Positions 4,050 through 62,636 of a DNA stretch of 64,000 nucleotides are shown here, piece by piece (position 1 is the stretch's first letter; the number at the start of each line of letters is the position of its first letter). The translations under genes were made by a program, and so were the position numbers. The DNA is from Nannocystis sp. SCPEA4 (GTDB taxonomy: Bacteria; Myxococcota_A; Polyangia; Nannocystales; Nannocystaceae), in assembly GCF_026626685.1 (NCBI RefSeq), contig NZ_JAPNJX010000001.1, positions 204,752-268,751 on the forward strand, given 5' to 3'. The notes beneath the pieces are model-generated. The model had not been told where the DNA came from and searched no databases. It saw only the letters and a program-made list of their open reading frames with translations.

Positions 4050-5165
4050 GTGAAGACCTCGCGGCCAGCCATCTGTCTCTTGAGCCATCTTGTTCTGCTG
4101 GCCGCCTGTGCGAGCGGCGACGAGGGCGACGCCGGCGGCTTCGGCAGCGGCGTCACGACTGCCACGGCCGGCGCGACCGCGACCTCCCCCGCGACCACGA
4201 CCTCGACCGGCAGCGACTCGCAGGTGCCGACCGAAGGCAGCGCCAGCGCCAGCGAGACCACCGGCGACGCGCCGACCACCACCGGCCCGCCGGGCAGCAC
4301 GAGCACGGGCGGCGACTCCTCGCCGGCCACCAGCGACGACGCCACCTCGTTGCCGCCCGCCGCGGACATGCCCGGCGAGTTCGAGGTGTGCACCAAGGTC
4401 GACGTGCTGCTGGTCGTCGACGCCTCGGCGAGCATGGCCGACGCGCTCGCCTCGCTGCCCGCGACCTTCGCGGAGATCCAGGCCACCCTCGCGCTCGAGG
4501 TCGGCGAGGGCATCGACGACTTCCACATCGCCGTCATCAACGCCTGCCCGGCGCCGCCCAACTTCCACAACTACGGCGCGGGCGACACCGACTGCGAGTT
4601 CCCCGGCGGCCGCAACTGGCTCGCCTCGGACGACCCCGCGGTCGCGCAGAAATTCGCCTGCGTGGCCCAGCTGCCCGACCAGGACGAGGCGCTCGGCGAA
4701 AACGGCGGCTACAACTCGATCCCCGACACCTGCGACGACGGCGACGACGAGGACGAGCAGCCGGCGTGGACGGCCGCTCGCGCGCTGTCCCCCGCCGTCG
4801 CCGTCAACGCCGGCTTCTCGCGCCCCGACTCGGTGCTGTTCGTGGTCGCCATCACCGACGAGGACGAGGCGCTGGTCGACCCCGACGACGTCGCGGAGAT
4901 CCACGACGCCATCGTCGCCGCCAAGGGTGAGGGCGGGCGCGTGGTGTTCCTCGGCATCGGCGGCGACGACGGCGGCTGCGACAACGCCTACGGCGGCGGC
5001 GAGGTCGCCGACTCCAAGGTGCTGCGCGAGGTCGCCGACGCCTTCGGCGGGCACGGCATGTACCGCACGATGTGCAAGAAGCGCGGCGACGACCCGATCG
5101 GCGACGCCTTCACCGAGGCGCTGACCACCCTGGTCGACGCGGCCTGCTCGAGCTTCCCGCCCTGA
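4050..5165 (+). CDS. lipoprotein with von Willebrand factor A-like domain
   Basis: Signal peptide plus lipobox (VKTSRPAICLLSHLVLLAAC), a T/S/G-rich linker, and a MIDAS-like DASAS in VDVLLVVDASASM. The ORF opens at 4011; GTG 4050 was chosen to fit the signal peptide. Confidence 0.75.
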   Translation: MKTSRPAICLLSHLVLLAACASGDEGDAGGFGSGVTTATAGATATSPATTTSTGSDSQVPTEGSASASETTGDAPTTTGPPGSTSTGGDSSPATSDDATSLPPAADMPGEFEVCTKVDVLLVVDASASMADALASLPATFAEIQATLALEVGEGIDDFHIAVINACPAPPNFHNYGAGDTDCEFPGGRNWLASDDPAVAQKFACVAQLPDQDEALGENGGYNSIPDTCDDGDDEDEQPAWTAARALSPAVAVNAGFSRPDSVLFVVAITDEDEALVDPDDVAEIHDAIVAAKGEGGRVVFLGIGGDDGGCDNAYGGGEVADSKVLREVADAFGGHGMYRTMCKKRGDDPIGDAFTEALTTLVDAACSSFPP

Positions 5166-5247
5166 GGACATGCCCTGAAGGAAATGTCTCCCTGAGCATG
5201 TCTCTCCAGACATAGAAAAACGGCCATGTCCCCGTGGACATGGCCGT
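5164..5247. repeat. 14-bp-phased GGACATGYCC palindrome array, 6 units
   Basis: Core (C/A)AT(G/A) tetramers start at 5169, 5183, 5197, 5211, 5225 and 5239, exactly 14 bp apart. The array fills a convergent gap between stop codons at 5165 and 5281. Confidence 0.9.
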
Positions 5248-5280
5248 GTGAGCGCGCCTCGGCGCCGCGCGCGCTCGACC

Positions 5281-5799
5281 TCATTGCGGGACCGGCGGGA
5301 CGGTGCCGGCCCACGTGATCTCCGGCTGCTTCGCCGGCTTCTTCGCCGTCTTCTTCAGCTTCGCCGGCACCTTCCCCGCCCAATCGATCGCCGGCTGCTT
5401 CTGCTTCTCCGGCACCTTCCCCGCCCACGTGATCGCGGGCTGCTTCGCCTTCGTCGGCGCCTCCCCCACCCACTCGATCGCGGGCTGCTTCATCTTCTTC
5501 GGCACCTCCCCGGCCCACTCGATCGCCGGCTTCTTCATCTTCGTCGGCACCTCCCCCGCCCACTCGATCGCCGGCTTCTTCGCCTTCGGCGGCTTCGCCG
5601 GTCGATCGGCATCGACGCGCCGGGCCGGCTTGCCGAAGCCGTGGCGCACCGAGTCGCCGTTGAACGACGCGCCGTGGCCCCGGCTGGCCACGAGTGGCGC
5701 GGGGCCGTCCGCCCCCCACCCGCCGGACGACGCGAGCGTGAAGCTGCAACCGGTCACGCTGAAGAGGAGCGCCAACAGGGTCACGATGAGCTTGTGCAT
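5281..5799 (-). CDS. lipoprotein with tandem 15-aa K/P/W repeats
   Basis: Signal/lipobox MHKLIVTLLALLFSVTGC. The C-terminal two-thirds is about 7 copies of K(K/Q)PAI(E/T/D)WAG(E/K)VPxKx. Confidence 0.8.
   Translation of the reverse strand: MHKLIVTLLALLFSVTGCSFTLASSGGWGADGPAPLVASRGHGASFNGDSVRHGFGKPARRVDADRPAKPPKAKKPAIEWAGEVPTKMKKPAIEWAGEVPKKMKQPAIEWVGEAPTKAKQPAITWAGKVPEKQKQPAIDWAGKVPAKLKKTAKKPAKQPEITWAGTVPPVPQ
5284..5598 (-). repeat. 45-bp in-frame tandem repeat (about 7 copies) inside the lipoprotein CDS
   Basis: The DNA unit cggcaccttccccgcccactcgatcgccggcttcttc... recurs every 45 bp. It encodes KKPAIEWAGEVPTKM-type repeats. Confidence 0.85.
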
Positions 5800-60440: not shown

Positions 60441-60504
60441 ATGCCCCTTCGGACATGTCCGTCACGACATGTCCAGAACGACATCACGGCGTGACGATGT
60501 TGAA
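60435..60504. repeat. 14-bp-phased array, 5 units, spanning a 43-bp convergent gap
   Basis: Cores are AATG 60440, CATG 60454 and 60468, CATC 60482 and GATG 60496. It overlaps both stop codons (60440 and 60484). Confidence 0.88.
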
Positions 60505-62484
60505 CGCCTGCGGGAACTGATCGAGCAGGCCGAGGAACTCCTCGACCGCCGCCCGGTTCCCGCGCAGCTTCAGCGTCCCGGCGGCGATCGCCTGGTCGAG
60601 CGACGTCTCGCCCGCCTGCAGCTCGATCAGCGTCATCTTCGACAGCGTCAGGCTCGCGTCGGCGCCGGCGACCTCGGCCGTCCGTCGCCCGTAGTTCAGC
60701 ACCCCGCGCGCGACGGTCAGCTCGTAGCGCTCCTTGGGCTCGGTGAAGTGGATGTCGAGCTTGAGCTTCGTCCCGGCCGCGCGCGCGCCGTTGAGGCGGA
60801 CGGCCATGAGGTCGAACAGCAGCGACGGCGGCAACGCGCGCAGCGTGTCCGGCCCGGCCGTCTGGCCCGCCGAGCCGCTCGGCACGCCATGGCGCAGCTC
60901 GTAGGCGCCTTGCAGGTACTCCGCGCGCCACGGCCCCGACTCCGCCTGGTAGCCCATTTGCTCGTAGGCGTCGGCCAGCAGCTCCTTGCCGGCCGCGCTG
61001 TCGGGGTTGGCGAACACCACGTGGCGCAGCACCTCGGCGACCCAGCGGTACTCCCCGCGCTCGAAGTCGGCGCGGGCTCGCTCGATCGCCGCCGCCTCGC
61101 CGCCCATGTACTCGACGTACTTGCGGGCCGCCGGCTCCTGCGGCAGCACGTCGAGGTCCGACGGGTTGCCGCTGTAGAAGCCCATGTAGCGCTGATACAC
61201 CGCTCGCGCGTTGTGGCGCACCGTCCCGTAGTAGCCACGGTTCGGCCAGTACTGCGCCAGGTCGGGCGGCAATTGCAGGTACTCCGCGATCTCCGGGCCG
61301 ATGTAGCCGAAGTTCAGCATGTGCACCGATTGATCGTGGATGTACTTGTAGAGATCGCGCTGCTTCTCGAGGTACGAGCGCACGTTGGCCTTGCCCCACA
61401 TCGGCCAGTGGTGGGCCTGGAACTTGACCTCGATCGCGTCGCCGTACAGCCCGATCGTCTCGTCGATGTACTTGGCCCACGCCAGCGCGTCGCGCACCTG
61501 GGCCCCGCGCAGCGTCAGGATGTTGTGAAGCGTGTGCGTCGTGTTCTCGGCCATCCACATCGCCCTGAACTGCGGGAAGTACGTGTTCATCTCGGCCGGC
61601 GCCTCGGTGTTGGGCGTCAACTGGAACACCATCTTCACCCCGTCGATGTTCAGCTCCTGGCCGGTCTTCGTGATCGACTGCGTCGGCGCGATCAGCGACA
61701 CCGTGCCCATCGCGTTCGCGATGCCGAGTCCGACGCCGACCGTGCCCTGGGGGTCGCGCGGCAGGAACGTCCCGTACATGTACGCCGCGCGGCGGGTCAT
61801 CGCCGCGCCCGCGAGCACCATCTCGCTCACCGCGTGGGCGAGGAAGCCCTCCGGCGCGATGATCCGCACCCGTCCCGCGCGCACGTCGGCCTCGTCGACC
61901 AGCCCGCGCACGCCCCCGTAATGATCGGGGTGCGAATGGCTGTAGATCACGGCCACGATCGGCCGGTCGCCGAGGTGCTGCTTGACCAGCGCGTGCGCGG
62001 CCCTCGCCGACTCGACCGTGAGCAGCGGGTCCATCACGATCCACCCGCGGTCGCCCTTGATGAATGTGATGTTCGCCAGGTCGAAGCCGCGCACTTGATA
62101 AACCCGCTCGGTCACCTTGAACAGGCCGTAGATCATGTTCAGCTGCGATTGTCGCCACAGGCTCGGATTGACCGTGTCGGGCGCCGGCGCGTCGCGGCGG
62201 ATGAACTTCTTGAACGGCTCGAGGTCCCACACCACATTACCGTCGCCGTCGGTGATGGTCAGCGTGTGCGGGCGGGCGATGAGCCCGCGCTCGGCGTCCT
62301 CGAAGTCGGCGCGGTCCGAGAACGGCAGCGACTGCAGCAGCGCCGCGTTGGCCTGCCGCGTCGCCTCGCTCGCCGGCTTCGGCCCGTTCGGCGCCGCGGC
62401 CAGCCCCGCGTAGGTCACACCAGCCAGCAGCAGTCCGATGGCGACGAACCAGATCCGCGAAACTTGAGCTCTGCGTGGCTGCAT
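60484..62484 (-). CDS. alkyl/aryl-sulfatase (MBL fold, SdsA1/BDS1-like) with SCP2-like C-terminus
   Basis: ATG 62484 gives a signal peptide. An MBL motif is present (YSHSHPDHYGG), and the dimerisation and SCP2-like C-terminal regions align with my memory of SdsA1-type enzymes. Confidence 0.85.
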   Translation of the reverse strand: MQPRRAQVSRIWFVAIGLLLAGVTYAGLAAAPNGPKPASEATRQANAALLQSLPFSDRADFEDAERGLIARPHTLTITDGDGNVVWDLEPFKKFIRRDAPAPDTVNPSLWRQSQLNMIYGLFKVTERVYQVRGFDLANITFIKGDRGWIVMDPLLTVESARAAHALVKQHLGDRPIVAVIYSHSHPDHYGGVRGLVDEADVRAGRVRIIAPEGFLAHAVSEMVLAGAAMTRRAAYMYGTFLPRDPQGTVGVGLGIANAMGTVSLIAPTQSITKTGQELNIDGVKMVFQLTPNTEAPAEMNTYFPQFRAMWMAENTTHTLHNILTLRGAQVRDALAWAKYIDETIGLYGDAIEVKFQAHHWPMWGKANVRSYLEKQRDLYKYIHDQSVHMLNFGYIGPEIAEYLQLPPDLAQYWPNRGYYGTVRHNARAVYQRYMGFYSGNPSDLDVLPQEPAARKYVEYMGGEAAAIERARADFERGEYRWVAEVLRHVVFANPDSAAGKELLADAYEQMGYQAESGPWRAEYLQGAYELRHGVPSGSAGQTAGPDTLRALPPSLLFDLMAVRLNGARAAGTKLKLDIHFTEPKERYELTVARGVLNYGRRTAEVAGADASLTLSKMTLIELQAGETSLDQAIAAGTLKLRGNRAAVEEFLGLLDQFPQAFNIVTP

Positions 62485-62580
62485 ACGCCCACGATGGCCG
62501 AGGACCGCGCTCGCGCCAGTGACCGCGCCGCCTGCTCGTCGCGGCCCACGCCGCCGCGGAGGCCGCCGCGCCGGCATTCA

Positions 62581-62636
62581 CCAGACATGACCTTGAAGAC
62601 AGCTGTGCAGACCTGCGCCGCGACGGACAAGCGCGC
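62581..62636. repeat. degenerate array, 4 units
   Basis: GACATG 62586, GACAGC 62600, GACCTG 62612 and GACAAG 62628. The total span is 42 bp. Confidence 0.5.

What the first reader, a model, noticed from the sequence alone, without database searches (positions are those of the whole stretch)
5164..62636. Pervasive arrays of a 10-bp palindrome (GGACATGYCC) repeated at an exact 14-bp period
At more than 20 sites a palindromic core recurs head-to-tail with cores exactly 14 bp apart. The consensus is GGACATGYCC, with variants GGACCTGTCC, GGACAGGTCC and GAGCATGCTC. Examples of phased runs are:
- 5169/5183/5197/5211/5225/5239
- 8090-8160
- 13249-13305
- 14219-14275
- 26207-26277
- 38870-38940
- 48463-48519
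- 59360-59430
- 60440-60496

Assuming about 70% GC, CATG should occur about once per 350-400 nt. Five or six copies in perfect register, seen many times, cannot be chance. The modal array is 6 units (84 bp), each unit being a 10-bp core plus about 4 variable bp. Because the cores are self-complementary, non-adjacent units can pair perfectly, for example 38881-38891 with 38908-38918.

No cas gene, transposase or RAYT gene lies in the window. The architecture does not match REP/BIME, ERIC, CRISPR or plasmid iterons as I know them.
Basis: seen in the sequence. Interest (0 to 1): 0.9.

Follow-up and report, generated by a model that had tools for sequence, protein, structure and literature searches.

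The report
Phased palindrome arrays at Nannocystis gene ends
The myxobacterial genus Nannocystis fills many gaps downstream of its genes with short arrays (usually 4-6 copies) of a 14-bp unit built around CATG that fold into stacked hairpins; they behave like the REP/BIME repeats of E. coli but have a different, apparently undescribed architecture.

Summary
GGACATGYCC occurs 22 times against 0.2 expected. CATG pairs lie 14/28/42 bp apart 36/27/17 times against about 1. There are 26 phased chains in the window and none in a shuffle.

A scan of 185,579 species genomes found this signature only in Nannocystis (all six species returned). Every other hit was an ordinary homogeneous micro- or minisatellite. 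Rfam and the searchable literature hold nothing like it.

Properties of the arrays:
- They lie downstream of genes: 31/48 convergent gaps, 19/102 tandem, 3/38 divergent. They usually start 1-15 nt after a stop codon.
- They are capped at about 6 units.
- They sit at the same orthologous gaps in five Nannocystis genomes and are absent from outgroups.
- The centre is more conserved than synonymous sites (0.95 vs 0.83); spacers are less conserved (0.60).
- Units are preferentially asymmetric (GGACATGCCC or its complement), tend to alternate, and pair with neighbours. Compensatory changes occur, and spacers favour tetraloop-type sequences.

Best reading: REP/BIME-like gene-end hairpin arrays, probably acting as terminators or mRNA 3'-end stabilisers, that grow and shrink in 14-bp steps. 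They lack the REP tags (GTAG/CGTC) and no RAYT is visible. The strict phase and conserved CATG imply an unidentified sequence-specific reader. This is a new variant of a known kind.

The parts
5164..5247 (.). 6-unit array (CATG AATG CATG CATA CATG CATG) in the convergent gap 5165|5281. Units 5+6 form a perfect 12-bp hairpin followed on the minus strand by TTTTT.
8085..8154 (.). 5-unit array in the convergent gap 8060|8168, with a 28-bp higher-order period.
13244..13313 (.). 5-unit array with AT-rich spacers in the divergent gap 12949|13463.
14214..14283 (.). 5-unit array in the convergent gap 14209|14321. It starts 6 nt after the stop codon.
16250..16291 (-). 3-unit array (CATG CAGG CATG) after the Hsp70-like gene. 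It is conserved at the orthologous gap in 5 Nannocystis genomes. The gap is near zero length in L001.
19267..19338 (-). Split array (2+2 CATG units plus degenerate units) between the sigma-like gene and the 155/198-aa gene. It is conserved in 5 genomes. L001 has a single seed unit here.
21154..21223 (.). 5-6-unit array (CAGG CCTG CATG CCTG CATG) in the convergent gap 21138|21239. It is conserved in 5 genomes. Units 4+5 are invariant perfect complements, and units 1+2 show a compensatory change of centres between species.
26216..26271 (-). 4-5-unit array filling the intra-operon gap hyp|ACAD2 (26203|26285). It is conserved in 5 genomes. L001 has a CCTG-centred array here, and the gap is only 11 bp in Enhygromyxa.
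33727..33810 (-). 6-unit array (mixed CAGG/CATG/CCTG centres) inside the long kinase ORF 31557-35522, at the point where the coding signature decays. The centre pattern is conserved across species.
38865..38934 (.). 5-unit array in the convergent gap 38860|38960. It starts 6 nt after the stop codon, and units 2 and 4 pair perfectly.
42867..42922 (-). 4-unit array inside the continuous ORF 40313-43204. It appears to be translated as the linker between the PP-binding and AMP-binding domains.
47555..47610 (-). 4-unit array in the tandem gap 47399|47661.
48458..48527 (.). 5-unit array in the divergent gap 48302|48681.
50542..50583 (-). 3-unit array (CATG CCTG CATG) spanning the tandem gap 50541|50567 and overlapping the stop codon of the upstream gene.
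51972..52027 (-). 4-unit array in the tandem gap 51985|52026.
54331..54386 (-). 4-unit degenerate array (CATG CAGG AATG CCTG) at the 5' end of the TonB-receptor ORF, downstream of gene 54486-55658.
59369..59438 (+). 5-unit array (plus a CCTG unit at 59355) in the tandem gap 59332|59454.
60435..60490 (.). 2 strong units plus degenerate units filling the convergent gap 60440|60484.
10557..10831 (-). Upstream region of a lipoprotein gene carrying isolated or paired units (10588, 10643/10657, 10726) of the form GGCTTCACGGACATGYCCTGAA.

Best explanation
These are a Nannocystis-specific family of extragenic hairpin arrays that work like REP/BIME elements.

Structure. Each array has about 4-6 units of 14 bp: a core GGR-CATG-YCC plus a 4-nt spacer. 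Units are preferentially asymmetric (GGACATGCCC or its reverse complement) and tend to alternate. Neighbouring units therefore pair into 10-12-bp stems whose 4-nt spacers serve as GNRA/UUCG-type loops. A whole array folds into a stack or nest of hairpins on either strand.

Location and likely role. Arrays sit immediately downstream of stop codons, above all between convergent genes, and also inside operons. The most likely role (inferred) is that they are transcribed as 3'-UTR or intercistronic RNA. There they would act as bidirectional, mostly U-tract-independent termination or attenuation signals and as barriers to 3'-exonucleases. This genome has essentially no excess of canonical terminators.

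Dynamics. Arrays are inherited at fixed gaps across the genus but are remodelled in situ by gain and loss of 14- or 28-bp units through slipped-strand or hairpin-mediated replication errors (shown by comparison).

Unidentified reader. Pairing alone cannot explain three things: the conserved CATG centre, the exact 14-nt register and the cap at about 6 units. They imply an unidentified sequence-specific reader, either a protein or an RNP (inferred).
For: Shown
- Non-randomness and phase.
- Restriction to the genus Nannocystis. All six species were returned by a scan of 185,579 species genomes. Every other hit was a homogeneous satellite.
- Absence from the syntenic outgroups L003-L005.
- Position. 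Arrays occupy 31/48 convergent, 19/102 tandem and 3/38 divergent gaps. Fisher p=4e-8 and 7e-8. They typically begin 1-15 nt from a stop codon.
- Pairing between units:
  - Adjacent units are more complementary than unit-shuffled controls (3/2000 permutations reach the observed value).
  - Real arrays fold 3 kcal/mol better than synthetic arrays built from family units (p=0.002).
  - Positions 5 and 10 are anti-correlated (p=4e-5), and F/R unit types alternate 40:23.
  - Specific examples: 5220-5247, the centre swap CCTG+CAGG <-> CATG+CATG, and the invariant complementary units 4+5 in the orthologous gap g11.
- Spacers are enriched 3-5x for TTC/GAA loop-type tetranucleotides.
- Fold z-scores run from -1.9 to -6.0 for most array-bearing gaps (the short 60430-60500 gap reaches only -1.1) and are about 0 for convergent gaps without arrays.
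- Canonical terminators occur at chance level. Two of the three best are built from array units.
- Arrays sit at the same gaps in five Nannocystis genomes.
- Identity between species is 0.95 at the centre, 0.78 in the core flanks and 0.60 in the spacers. Four-fold synonymous sites of the neighbouring gene give 0.83.
- In-situ growth and shrinkage: one seed unit or a zero-length gap in L001 against 3-6 units in the window; a one-unit difference between exedens and the window at g6; direct runs of CAGG units.
- In L069 a conventional hairpin occupies the gap where L093 has an array.

From the literature
- REPs show the same positional bias and are argued to act as RNA (PMC3733652).
- E. coli REP325 is both a terminator and an mRNA stabiliser (bioRxiv 10.64898/2026.03.23.713779).
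Against: - No transcript data exist, so both transcription of the arrays and termination are inferred.
- Sense and antisense strands do not differ significantly in tandem gaps: F 19 vs R 25, and a fold-energy difference of -2 kcal/mol with p=0.3.
- Asymmetric-centre units do not preferentially have inverted partners (10 inverted vs 18 direct pairs). Perfect pairing is therefore not obligatory.
- A pure hairpin function does not explain conservation of the CATG sequence itself, the exact 14-bp register or the size cap.
- Arrays inside an operon (g6) would be polar if they were strong terminators.
- The covariation signals are modest, and with only five orthologous sequences RNAalifold finds just 1-3 compensatory pairs per array.
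Confidence: 0.5

Rival explanations
1. The arrays are binding platforms on double-stranded DNA. A Nannocystis-specific dimeric protein would recognise GGRCATGYCC and polymerise cooperatively in 14-bp register (1.33 helical turns, so 3 units make 4 turns) at gene ends. Candidates are a nucleoid-associated protein, a topoisomerase or gyrase site as at BIME-2, or a transcriptional roadblock. It could relieve supercoiling or insulate convergent transcription units.
For: - The centre CATG is more conserved than synonymous sites, while spacers are free.
- The 14-bp phase is exact, with almost no 13- or 15-bp spacings.
- Arrays are capped at about 6 units, as expected for a complex of defined size.
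- Units show no self-complementarity beyond what two independently selected half-sites would give.
- Arrays with direct runs of CAGG units, which cannot pair perfectly, persist.
- Enrichment between convergent genes is where positive supercoils accumulate.
- From my own knowledge: E. coli BIME-2 binds gyrase, and MetJ and omega repressors bind phased arrays of short units.
Against: - A homodimer model does not predict the strong anti-correlation of the two half-sites (A..C or G..T favoured, p=4e-5).
- It also does not predict alternation of orientations, array-specific co-adaptation of units for pairing, the compensatory centre swap or the loop-type spacer bias.
- No candidate protein was identified.
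- A 14-bp spacing is tight for typical HTH dimers.
Confidence: 0.2
2. The arrays are selfish, non-autonomous mobile or self-expanding DNA with no host function, like REPINs or MITEs. They would be spread or amplified by a dedicated enzyme encoded elsewhere in the genome, such as a RAYT-like ssDNA transposase recognising the hairpins. They would survive only where insertion is tolerated, which means downstream of genes.
For: - The family is lineage-specific and high-copy, with a shared core.
- Presence/absence and unit-number differences occur between close relatives.
- Arrays are depleted in promoter-only gaps, as expected from purifying selection against insertions.
- Occasional in-frame copies lie inside genes, as for REPs and RPEs (PMC3733652).
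- Arrays have a preferred size.
- A sister lineage has a different centre (CCTG) with the same period, reminiscent of REP-RAYT co-evolution.
Against: - Arrays sit at the same gaps in five species and evolve in place.
- They grow from single seed units rather than arriving as complete elements.
- There are no target-site duplications, terminal inverted repeats or conserved flanks.
- Spacers carry no position-specific consensus, as copies of a master element would.
- The centre is under purifying selection at individual loci.
- There is no GTAG/CGTC tag.
- There is no Y1 transposase in 64 kb.
Confidence: 0.12
3. The arrays are a neutral by-product of mutation. They would be slippage-prone minisatellites seeded by chance near stop codons and kept uniform by template switching within hairpins (quasi-palindrome correction), with no function and no reader.
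For: - Growth and shrinkage occur in 14- or 28-bp steps.
- Units within an array are mutually complementary, as template switching would produce.
- Spacers evolve faster than synonymous sites, as expected for exposed loops.
Against: - The same core sequence recurs at every array seen here (26 phased chains in this 64-kb window, several arrays per 8-kb locus in six species), and within-array homogenisation cannot explain that.
- The size distribution is peaked and capped rather than geometric.
- Adjacent units are heterogeneous, unlike every ordinary satellite found by the same scan.
- Conservation of position and centre across the genus exceeds that of synonymous sites.
- The bias towards convergent gaps is strong.
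Confidence: 0.06
4. The arrays are epigenetic clusters. They would present phased CATG sites to a CATG-specific DNA methyltransferase or methyl-reader, giving local methylation-dependent regulation.
For: - CATG is the most invariant part of the unit.
- CATG is palindromic, as type II methylation sites are.
Against: - Outside arrays, CATG is neither avoided nor enriched (about 160 observed vs 157 expected).
- About one third of units carry CCTG or CAGG centres and persist across species.
- No methyltransferase lies nearby.
- The idea explains neither the pairing signals nor the gene-end position.
Confidence: 0.04

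Closest known systems
REP sequences and their clusters (BIMEs) of Enterobacteria, Pseudomonas and Stenotrophomonas; GTAG/CGTC-tagged palindromic repeats (PMC3733652)
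   Same: - Both are high-copy, lineage-specific, extragenic and palindromic.
- Both lie predominantly downstream of ORFs, in convergent and unidirectional gaps, and are rare in divergent gaps.
- Units are often close together in opposite orientation and fold into larger structures.
- Locations vary between relatives.
- Occasional copies lie inside genes.
- Proposed roles for both are termination, mRNA stabilisation and DNA topology.
   Different: - The unit here is 14 bp (10-bp core plus 4-nt spacer), not a 20-40-nt stem-loop.
- Spacing is strictly phased head to tail, and arrays are capped at about 6 units.
- There is no GTAG or CGTC tag.
- There are no conserved BIME linker motifs.
- No RAYT is visible.
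- Arrays are positionally conserved across a genus and grow in situ.
E. coli REP325, a BIME-2-type cluster acting as a dual terminator and stabiliser (bioRxiv 10.64898/2026.03.23.713779)
   Same: - It is a cluster of repeated hairpins in a 3'UTR or intercistronic position.
- It is proposed to limit read-through and protect upstream mRNA.
- REPs between convergent genes are associated with effects on expression.
   Different: - Function is demonstrated experimentally only for E. coli.
- The sequence is unrelated and the units are much longer.
Intrinsic terminators without a U-tract, including bidirectional and tandem hairpin forms described in high-GC bacteria (from my own knowledge: Mycobacterium I-, V-, U- and X-shaped terminators; WebGeSTer)
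   Same: - Both are GC-rich hairpins just downstream of stop codons, often shared by convergent genes and mostly lacking a U-run.
- Two arrays do make canonical terminators.
   Different: - Terminator stems are not conserved in sequence between genes.
- Here the same core, register and array size recur at every array examined, in the window and in six other Nannocystis species.
Phased operator arrays for ribbon-helix-helix repressors (from my own knowledge: MetJ 8-bp metboxes; omega protein 7-bp heptads)
   Same: Both are head-to-tail arrays of 2-10 very short (palindromic) units at exact spacing.
   Different: - Operator arrays lie in a few promoter loci per genome, not at about a third of gene ends.
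- They show no inter-unit complementarity or loop-type spacers.
Ordinary 7/14-bp micro- and minisatellites, including cyanobacterial STRR heptamers
   Same: - They share the period (14 or 2x7).
- Both change by slippage in unit steps.
   Different: - Satellites have near-identical adjacent units and occur at single loci (all non-Nannocystis hits).
- Nannocystis arrays have heterogeneous spacers and a shared core, and they are dispersed, size-capped and conserved.

Membership tests
REP (repetitive extragenic palindromes) | High-copy, extragenic, palindromic repeat dispersed over the chromosome | tested here: met
   - 26 chains lie in 64 kb, nearly all intergenic.
- There are multiple arrays per 8-kb locus in six species.
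REP (repetitive extragenic palindromes) | The unit is a 20-40-nt imperfect stem-loop | tested here: not met
   - The repeating unit is 14 bp.
- Only a pair of units (24-28 nt) makes a REP-sized hairpin.
- Units are not self-complementary beyond the consensus.
REP (repetitive extragenic palindromes) | Terminal GTAG or CGTC tag (superfamilies of PMC3733652) | tested here: not met
   GTAG 0, CTAC 1, CGTC 2 and GACG 0 in 938 nt of arrays, all at or below background.
REP (repetitive extragenic palindromes) | Located downstream of ORFs, mainly in convergent and unidirectional gaps | tested here: met
   31/48 convergent, 19/102 tandem and 3/38 divergent gaps.
REP (repetitive extragenic palindromes) | Association with a RAYT (Y1 transposase) gene flanked by the repeats | not testable with these tools
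   - No Y1_Tnp domain appears among the window genes.
BIME (clusters of REPs) | Units in alternating orientation | tested here: inconclusive
   - F/R alternation at lag 1 is 40:23 (p=0.04).
- Asymmetric-centre units give 10 inverted vs 18 direct pairs.
BIME (clusters of REPs) | Conserved linker motifs between units (for example an IHF site) | tested here: not met
   Spacers are 4 nt, variable, and only biased towards TTC/GAA.
CRISPR array | Repeats of 23-50 bp separated by unique spacers of similar length, with cas genes or a leader | tested here: not met
   - The period is 14 bp with 4-nt spacers.
- There are more than 20 separate loci.
- No cas domain was found.
Plasmid/replicon iterons | Direct repeats of 17-22 bp clustered at one origin next to a rep gene | tested here: not met
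   - The context is chromosomal and conserved in synteny across species.
- The arrays are dispersed.
- No rep gene is present.
MITE | A defined element with terminal inverted repeats and target-site duplication, inserted as a whole | tested here: not met
   - There are no conserved flanks or TSDs.
- Arrays grow in situ from single units.
Canonical intrinsic terminator | GC-rich hairpin followed by a U-run | tested here: not met
   - Only 5247-5220(-) and 26277-26253(-) qualify.
- Terminator-like sites are at chance level overall.
Simple minisatellite / VNTR | Near-identical tandem units at a single locus | tested here: not met
   - TRF reports only 65-85% matches.
- Spacers differ between adjacent units.
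- The family is dispersed.
Any Rfam family | Reaches a family gathering score | tested here: not met
   Only tRNA 31251-31324 was found.

The most novel reading that the evidence does not exclude
The arrays are the cis element of an undescribed gene-end punctuation system private to Nannocystis and its closest relatives. A sequence-specific protein or RNP would read CATG-centred units in a strict 14-nt register and assemble on about 5-6 units, on folded RNA/ssDNA or on duplex DNA. It would terminate or insulate transcription at about a third of all gene ends. An alternative reading is that a novel templated repeat-adding activity builds the arrays.
Probability: 0.2. Interest if true: 0.85.

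Novelty: new variant of a known kind. Interest (0 to 1): 0.62.

Why it matters
Scale. If the window is typical (about 1 array per 4 kb), a 12-Mb Nannocystis genome carries a few thousand of these arrays, at roughly two thirds of convergent gene ends. That would make them the dominant non-coding feature of the genus.

Unusual constraints. They combine a strict ruler (14 bp), a size cap (about 6 units), a centre conserved more than synonymous sites, and fast-evolving spacers. REPs do not show this combination, and it points to an unknown reader.

What they offer:
- A tractable natural system for asking how GC-rich bacteria without canonical terminators end transcription. The unit number varies naturally from 0 to 6 at orthologous sites.
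- A case study of how REP-like elements arise and are maintained without an obvious transposase.
- Genotyping markers, and compact candidate terminator or insulator parts for engineering myxobacterial producers of natural products.

Tried and rejected
- Exact look-ups of two window proteins found nothing. The window's genome is not in that protein collection. The organism was inferred from homologues instead.
- None of the 38 Nannocystis loci from the genome scan overlaps the window.
- The first pairing of the L069/L093 arrays was wrong. It was not the positional orthologue and was corrected. The g16 register for L288 was off by one unit and was corrected.
- A global dyad, with the whole array as one palindrome centred on unit 3, is not supported. 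Even-lag complementarity and type patterns are at null level.
- Alternation of loop and linker spacers was considered but not computed. In the one array inspected by eye (26202-26280, sense strand) all four consecutive spacers are TTCG, so spacer classes do not obviously alternate.
- A sense/antisense (G.U vs A.C) test for RNA-level selection in tandem gaps was not significant.
- The test for CCTG/CAGG partner co-occurrence was negative.
- The viral-contig scan found no Nannocystis-type arrays.
- The metagenome scan for CCTGYCC x3 returned mostly microsatellites. Only a handful of high-GC contigs carry the sister family.
- The match to the p53 response element (RRRCATGYYY) in the literature search is a coincidence of sequence.
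- Rho rut sites, CsrA GGA motifs, XerCD/dif sites, transposon excision footprints and coding potential (the 14-bp period is not a multiple of 3) were considered from my own knowledge. All were dropped as inconsistent with the structure, composition or distribution.
- Two of three further genome look-ups failed.

Full report
OBSERVATION

The window is 72.6% GC.
- GGACATGYCC occurs 22 times on both strands against 0.21 expected. None of 100 dinucleotide shuffles reaches that number.
- CATG occurs 240 times against 157 expected from base composition.
- The distances between CATG sites are sharply phased: 36 pairs at 14 bp, 27 at 28, 17 at 42 and 7 at 56. Neighbouring distances give about 1, and 13 and 15 give 1 each.
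Several of the listed members are degenerate units (AATG, CATA, TATG, CCTG).
- A PWM-chain detector that tolerates such units finds 26 phased chains of at least 2 units, 17 of them with at least 3. A shuffled window gives none.
- TRF sees the same arrays at only 65-85% matches, and sometimes at a 28-bp period.

ORGANISM AND DISTRIBUTION

The gene context is ordinary chromosome: T6SS VgrG/PAAR, Ser/Thr kinases, a beta-oxidation operon, a TonB receptor and others. No transposase, RAYT or cas domain is present.

The acyl-CoA dehydrogenase at 25040-26203 is 92% identical to the cluster that holds the orthologues of all named Nannocystis species. The window therefore comes from Nannocystis or a very close relative.

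I scanned one genome per species (185,579 species) for five CATG exactly 14 bp apart.
- 38 loci come from six Nannocystis species: exedens, pusilla, punicea, radixulma, bainbridge and sp. RBIL2.
- Only these show the window's signature: heterogeneous units with a GGRCATGYCC core and variable spacers, and often several arrays per 8 kb.
- Every other hit is a homogeneous 7- or 14-bp satellite at a single site.

Further distribution results:
- Syntenic loci from more distant Nannocystaceae-like genomes, including Enhygromyxa salina, have no such arrays.
- A sister lineage known only from metagenomes (L001, and L143, L161, L236 and others) has arrays with the same 14-bp period, the same GGRC..GYCC frame and GAA-type spacers. 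Their centres are mostly asymmetric, CCTG or CAGG.
- No such arrays occur in viral contigs.
- Rfam finds only a tRNA.
- Six literature searches, including the N. exedens genome announcement and two broad REP surveys, found no description of this element; a seventh returned only the general REP/BIME literature.

ANATOMY

Pooling 68 arrays (311 units) gives the unit a-c-G-G-R-C-A-T-G-Y-C-C-s-t.

Units are not more self-complementary than the column consensus predicts (1.97 vs 2.02 pairs). Positions 5 and 10 are in fact strongly anti-correlated:
- A..C 76 and G..T 73, against A..T 53 and G..C 34 (Fisher p=4e-5).
- The preferred unit is therefore the asymmetric GGACATGCCC or its reverse complement GGGCATGTCC.
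- Each of these pairs perfectly only with the other.
- The two orientations tend to alternate (40 vs 23, p=0.04).

Evidence that units pair with each other:
- Adjacent units are more complementary than unit-shuffled controls (3 of 2000 permutations reach the observed value).
- Real arrays fold about 3 kcal/mol better than synthetic arrays built from random family units (p=0.002).
- At 5220-5247, GGCCATGTCC and GGACATGGCC are each non-palindromic. Together they form a perfect 12-bp hairpin.

Other structural features:
- Spacers are enriched 3-5-fold for TTC/GAA tetranucleotides (CTTC, GTTC, GAAC, GAAA). In context these make UUCG- or GNRA-type loops.
- Arrays are bounded by inward-facing half-units.
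- Array size is not geometric. In the unbiased window the counts are 2:11, 3:2, 4:5, 5:7, 6:1. None of 41 arrays that triggered the scan exceeds 6 units.
- Against strict pairing, CCTG and CAGG units in the same array are more often in direct than inverted orientation (18 vs 10). This fits tandem duplication of units.

POSITION

I used a GC3-based gene map.
- Arrays of at least 3 units occupy 31 of 48 convergent gaps, 19 of 102 tandem gaps and 3 of 38 divergent gaps.
- Convergent vs divergent gives p=4e-8, and convergent vs tandem gives p=7e-8.
- The unbiased window shows the same trend by my hand tally of its gaps: arrays lie in about 6 of 9 convergent, 9 of 30 tandem and 2 of 10 divergent gaps. 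The PWM table lists 5 convergent, 2 divergent and 6-8 tandem arrays of at least 3 units.
- In convergent gaps the array usually begins 1-15 nt from a stop codon.
- Gaps with arrays mostly fold with z-scores of -1.9 to -6.0 (the short 60430-60500 gap gives only -1.1). Two convergent gaps without arrays have z near 0.
- Canonical hairpin-plus-T-run terminators are at chance level in this genome (4 vs 3.0, 6 vs 4.9, 5 vs 4.3). Two of the three convincing ones are built from array units, and the third follows the tRNA.
- One array (42867-42922) lies in an open, coding-like frame between two domains of a multidomain enzyme.
- Another (33727-33810) lies in the tail of a kinase ORF.

EVOLUTION

I fetched the same operon from N. 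exedens, N. punicea, N. pusilla and sp. RBIL2. Arrays sit at the same gaps in all five genomes:
- hyp|ACAD2;
- the convergent gap equivalent to window 21154-21223;
- upstream of the 198-aa gene;
- after the Hsp70-like gene;
- the kinase tail.

Unit number and phase are largely kept. Differences come in whole units, for example one extra unit in exedens at hyp|ACAD2.

Identity between species, against 0.83 at four-fold synonymous sites of the adjacent gene:
- centre: 0.95;
- core flanks: 0.78;
- spacers: 0.60.

The centre and the register are therefore under purifying selection, while spacers evolve faster than synonymous sites.

In the convergent gap, units 4+5 (GGGCAGGTCC/GGACCTGCCC) are invariant perfect complements. 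Units 1+2 carry CCTG+CAGG in exedens and punicea but CATG+CATG in pusilla and RBIL2. That is a C-G to A-U swap at positions that pair. RNAalifold recovers conserved inter-unit hairpins in the three gaps tested, but with five sequences it finds only 1-3 compensatory pairs in each.

At greater distance the arrays turn over:
- L001 has a single seed unit or a near-zero gap where the window has 3-6 units.
- L001 has an array in the ECH|ACAD1 gap where the window has none.
- Within Nannocystis, L093 has a 5-unit array where L069 has a short conventional hairpin.

Arrays are thus inherited and remodelled in place. They are not inserted as complete elements, and no target-site duplication or conserved flank is seen.

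INTERPRETATION

The thing itself is a genus-specific, dispersed, size-capped, phase-exact family of hairpin-forming arrays at gene 3' ends. Its centre is under selection. I consider this established.

How it works is inferred. The best-supported reading is a REP/BIME-like element, with confidence about 0.5:
- It is transcribed with the upstream gene or genes.
- It folds into stacked or nested hairpins.
- It acts as a bidirectional, mostly U-tract-independent terminator or attenuator and as a 3'-exonuclease barrier.

This matches the positional statistics, the pairing and loop signals, the lack of canonical terminators, and what is known for REPs (PMC3733652; bioRxiv 10.64898/2026.03.23.713779).

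It does not by itself explain why the CATG sequence, the 14-nt register and the cap at about 6 units are conserved. These features call for a sequence-specific reader that I could not identify.

Rivals:
- A duplex-DNA protein platform, for example a topoisomerase or nucleoid-protein site between convergent genes (0.2). It explains the ruler, the cap and the conserved centre. It does not explain half-site anti-correlation, co-adaptation of units or loop-type spacers.
- A selfish REPIN-like element (0.12). It is disfavoured by positional conservation, in-situ growth and selection on the centre.
- Neutral slippage with hairpin-templated homogenisation (0.06).
- CATG methylation clusters (0.04).

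COMPARISON AND NOVELTY

Against the defining features of REPs, the arrays compare as follows:
- Met: extragenic, high-copy and palindromic; position downstream of ORFs.
- Not met: the 20-40-nt stem-loop unit; the GTAG/CGTC tag.
- Not testable here: linkage to a RAYT.

BIME-type alternation is only weakly present, and the conserved linkers are absent. The definitions of CRISPR, iteron, MITE, canonical terminator and simple minisatellite are each failed on tested features.

I therefore class this as a new variant of a known kind. It works like a REP/BIME but is not a member of the described REP families. It is interesting mainly for its unusual ruler-like architecture and the implied unknown reader.

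Noticed in passing
window 42867-42922: A 4-unit array (CAGG CATG CCTG CATG) lies inside the continuous ORF 40313-43204. It sits between the PP-binding and AMP-binding domains, where GC3 stays near 0.9. It is apparently translated as the linker GASDMSTSTGPKEHVREDLSL, so this looks like an in-frame intragenic copy of the kind known for REPs and RPEs.
   Followed up: partly
window 31557-33900 (and L288 1749-2647, L289 2024-2550, L290 2395-3023): The C-terminal two thirds of the kinase ORF 31557-35522 lose the coding signature (GC2 about 0.85, GC3 about 0.78). The region is full of tandem repeats: 81 bp at 32439-32647 and 54-57 bp at 33250-33446. A 6-7-unit array with mixed CAGG/CATG/CCTG centres keeps its centre pattern in three named Nannocystis species. 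Repeated CAGG-CCTG-CAGG triplets also recur there.
   Followed up: partly
L027 3620-3790 / L038 5275-5790: A second dispersed motif, TGTCTCTCGGSCCAG, recurs several times in a variable intergenic region of N. pusilla and sp. RBIL2. It is unrelated to the CATG units.
   Followed up: no
L254, L274, L283, L285 (also L252, L271, L276), viral contigs: Some phage contigs of about 47% GC carry heterogeneous 14-bp-phased CATG arrays with a different, AT-rich core, for example TAATACATGCTAAC TAATTCATGCATTC CAATTCATGCAATG. They may be phage operator or iteron arrays.
   Followed up: no
window 5343-5593: A 45-bp tandem repeat of 5.6 copies at 85% matches lies inside the gene 5281-5799(-), which has no Pfam hit. 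It is probably a repetitive protein.
   Followed up: no
window 10557-10831: The upstream region of a lipoprotein gene (signal peptide ...ALLLAGC, true start near 10555) carries isolated copies of a longer version of the unit, GGCTTCACGGACATGYCCTGAA. A similar CCTGA(A/G)GG junction overlaps stop codons at 5163 and in L069/L093.
   Followed up: partly
window 13244-14283: The DUF429 gene (13463-14209) is flanked by 5-unit arrays on both sides. Given the array density this may be coincidence, but RAYT genes are typically flanked by their REPs.
   Followed up: no
window 1-60000; 31332-31349: Canonical hairpin-plus-T-run terminators are no more frequent than in shuffles. The clearest non-array example directly follows the tRNA at 31251-31324.
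   Followed up: yes
L069 about 2150-2200 vs L093 6700-6790: At one orthologous gap N. punicea has a plain hairpin, GATCCGCC-tgcg-GGGCGGATC, where N. radixulma has a 5-unit array. This hints that the two are functionally interchangeable.
   Followed up: partly
window 49053-49177 and 21308-21488: Further tandem repeats (27/51 bp, and 27/57 bp) lie within or near coding regions. They are unrelated to the 14-bp family.
   Followed up: no
orthologous arrays: Array spacers diverge faster (identity 0.60) than four-fold synonymous sites of the neighbouring gene (0.83). Either the loops are hypermutable, or unit turnover scrambles orthology, or synonymous sites are strongly constrained by GC3 bias.
   Followed up: partly
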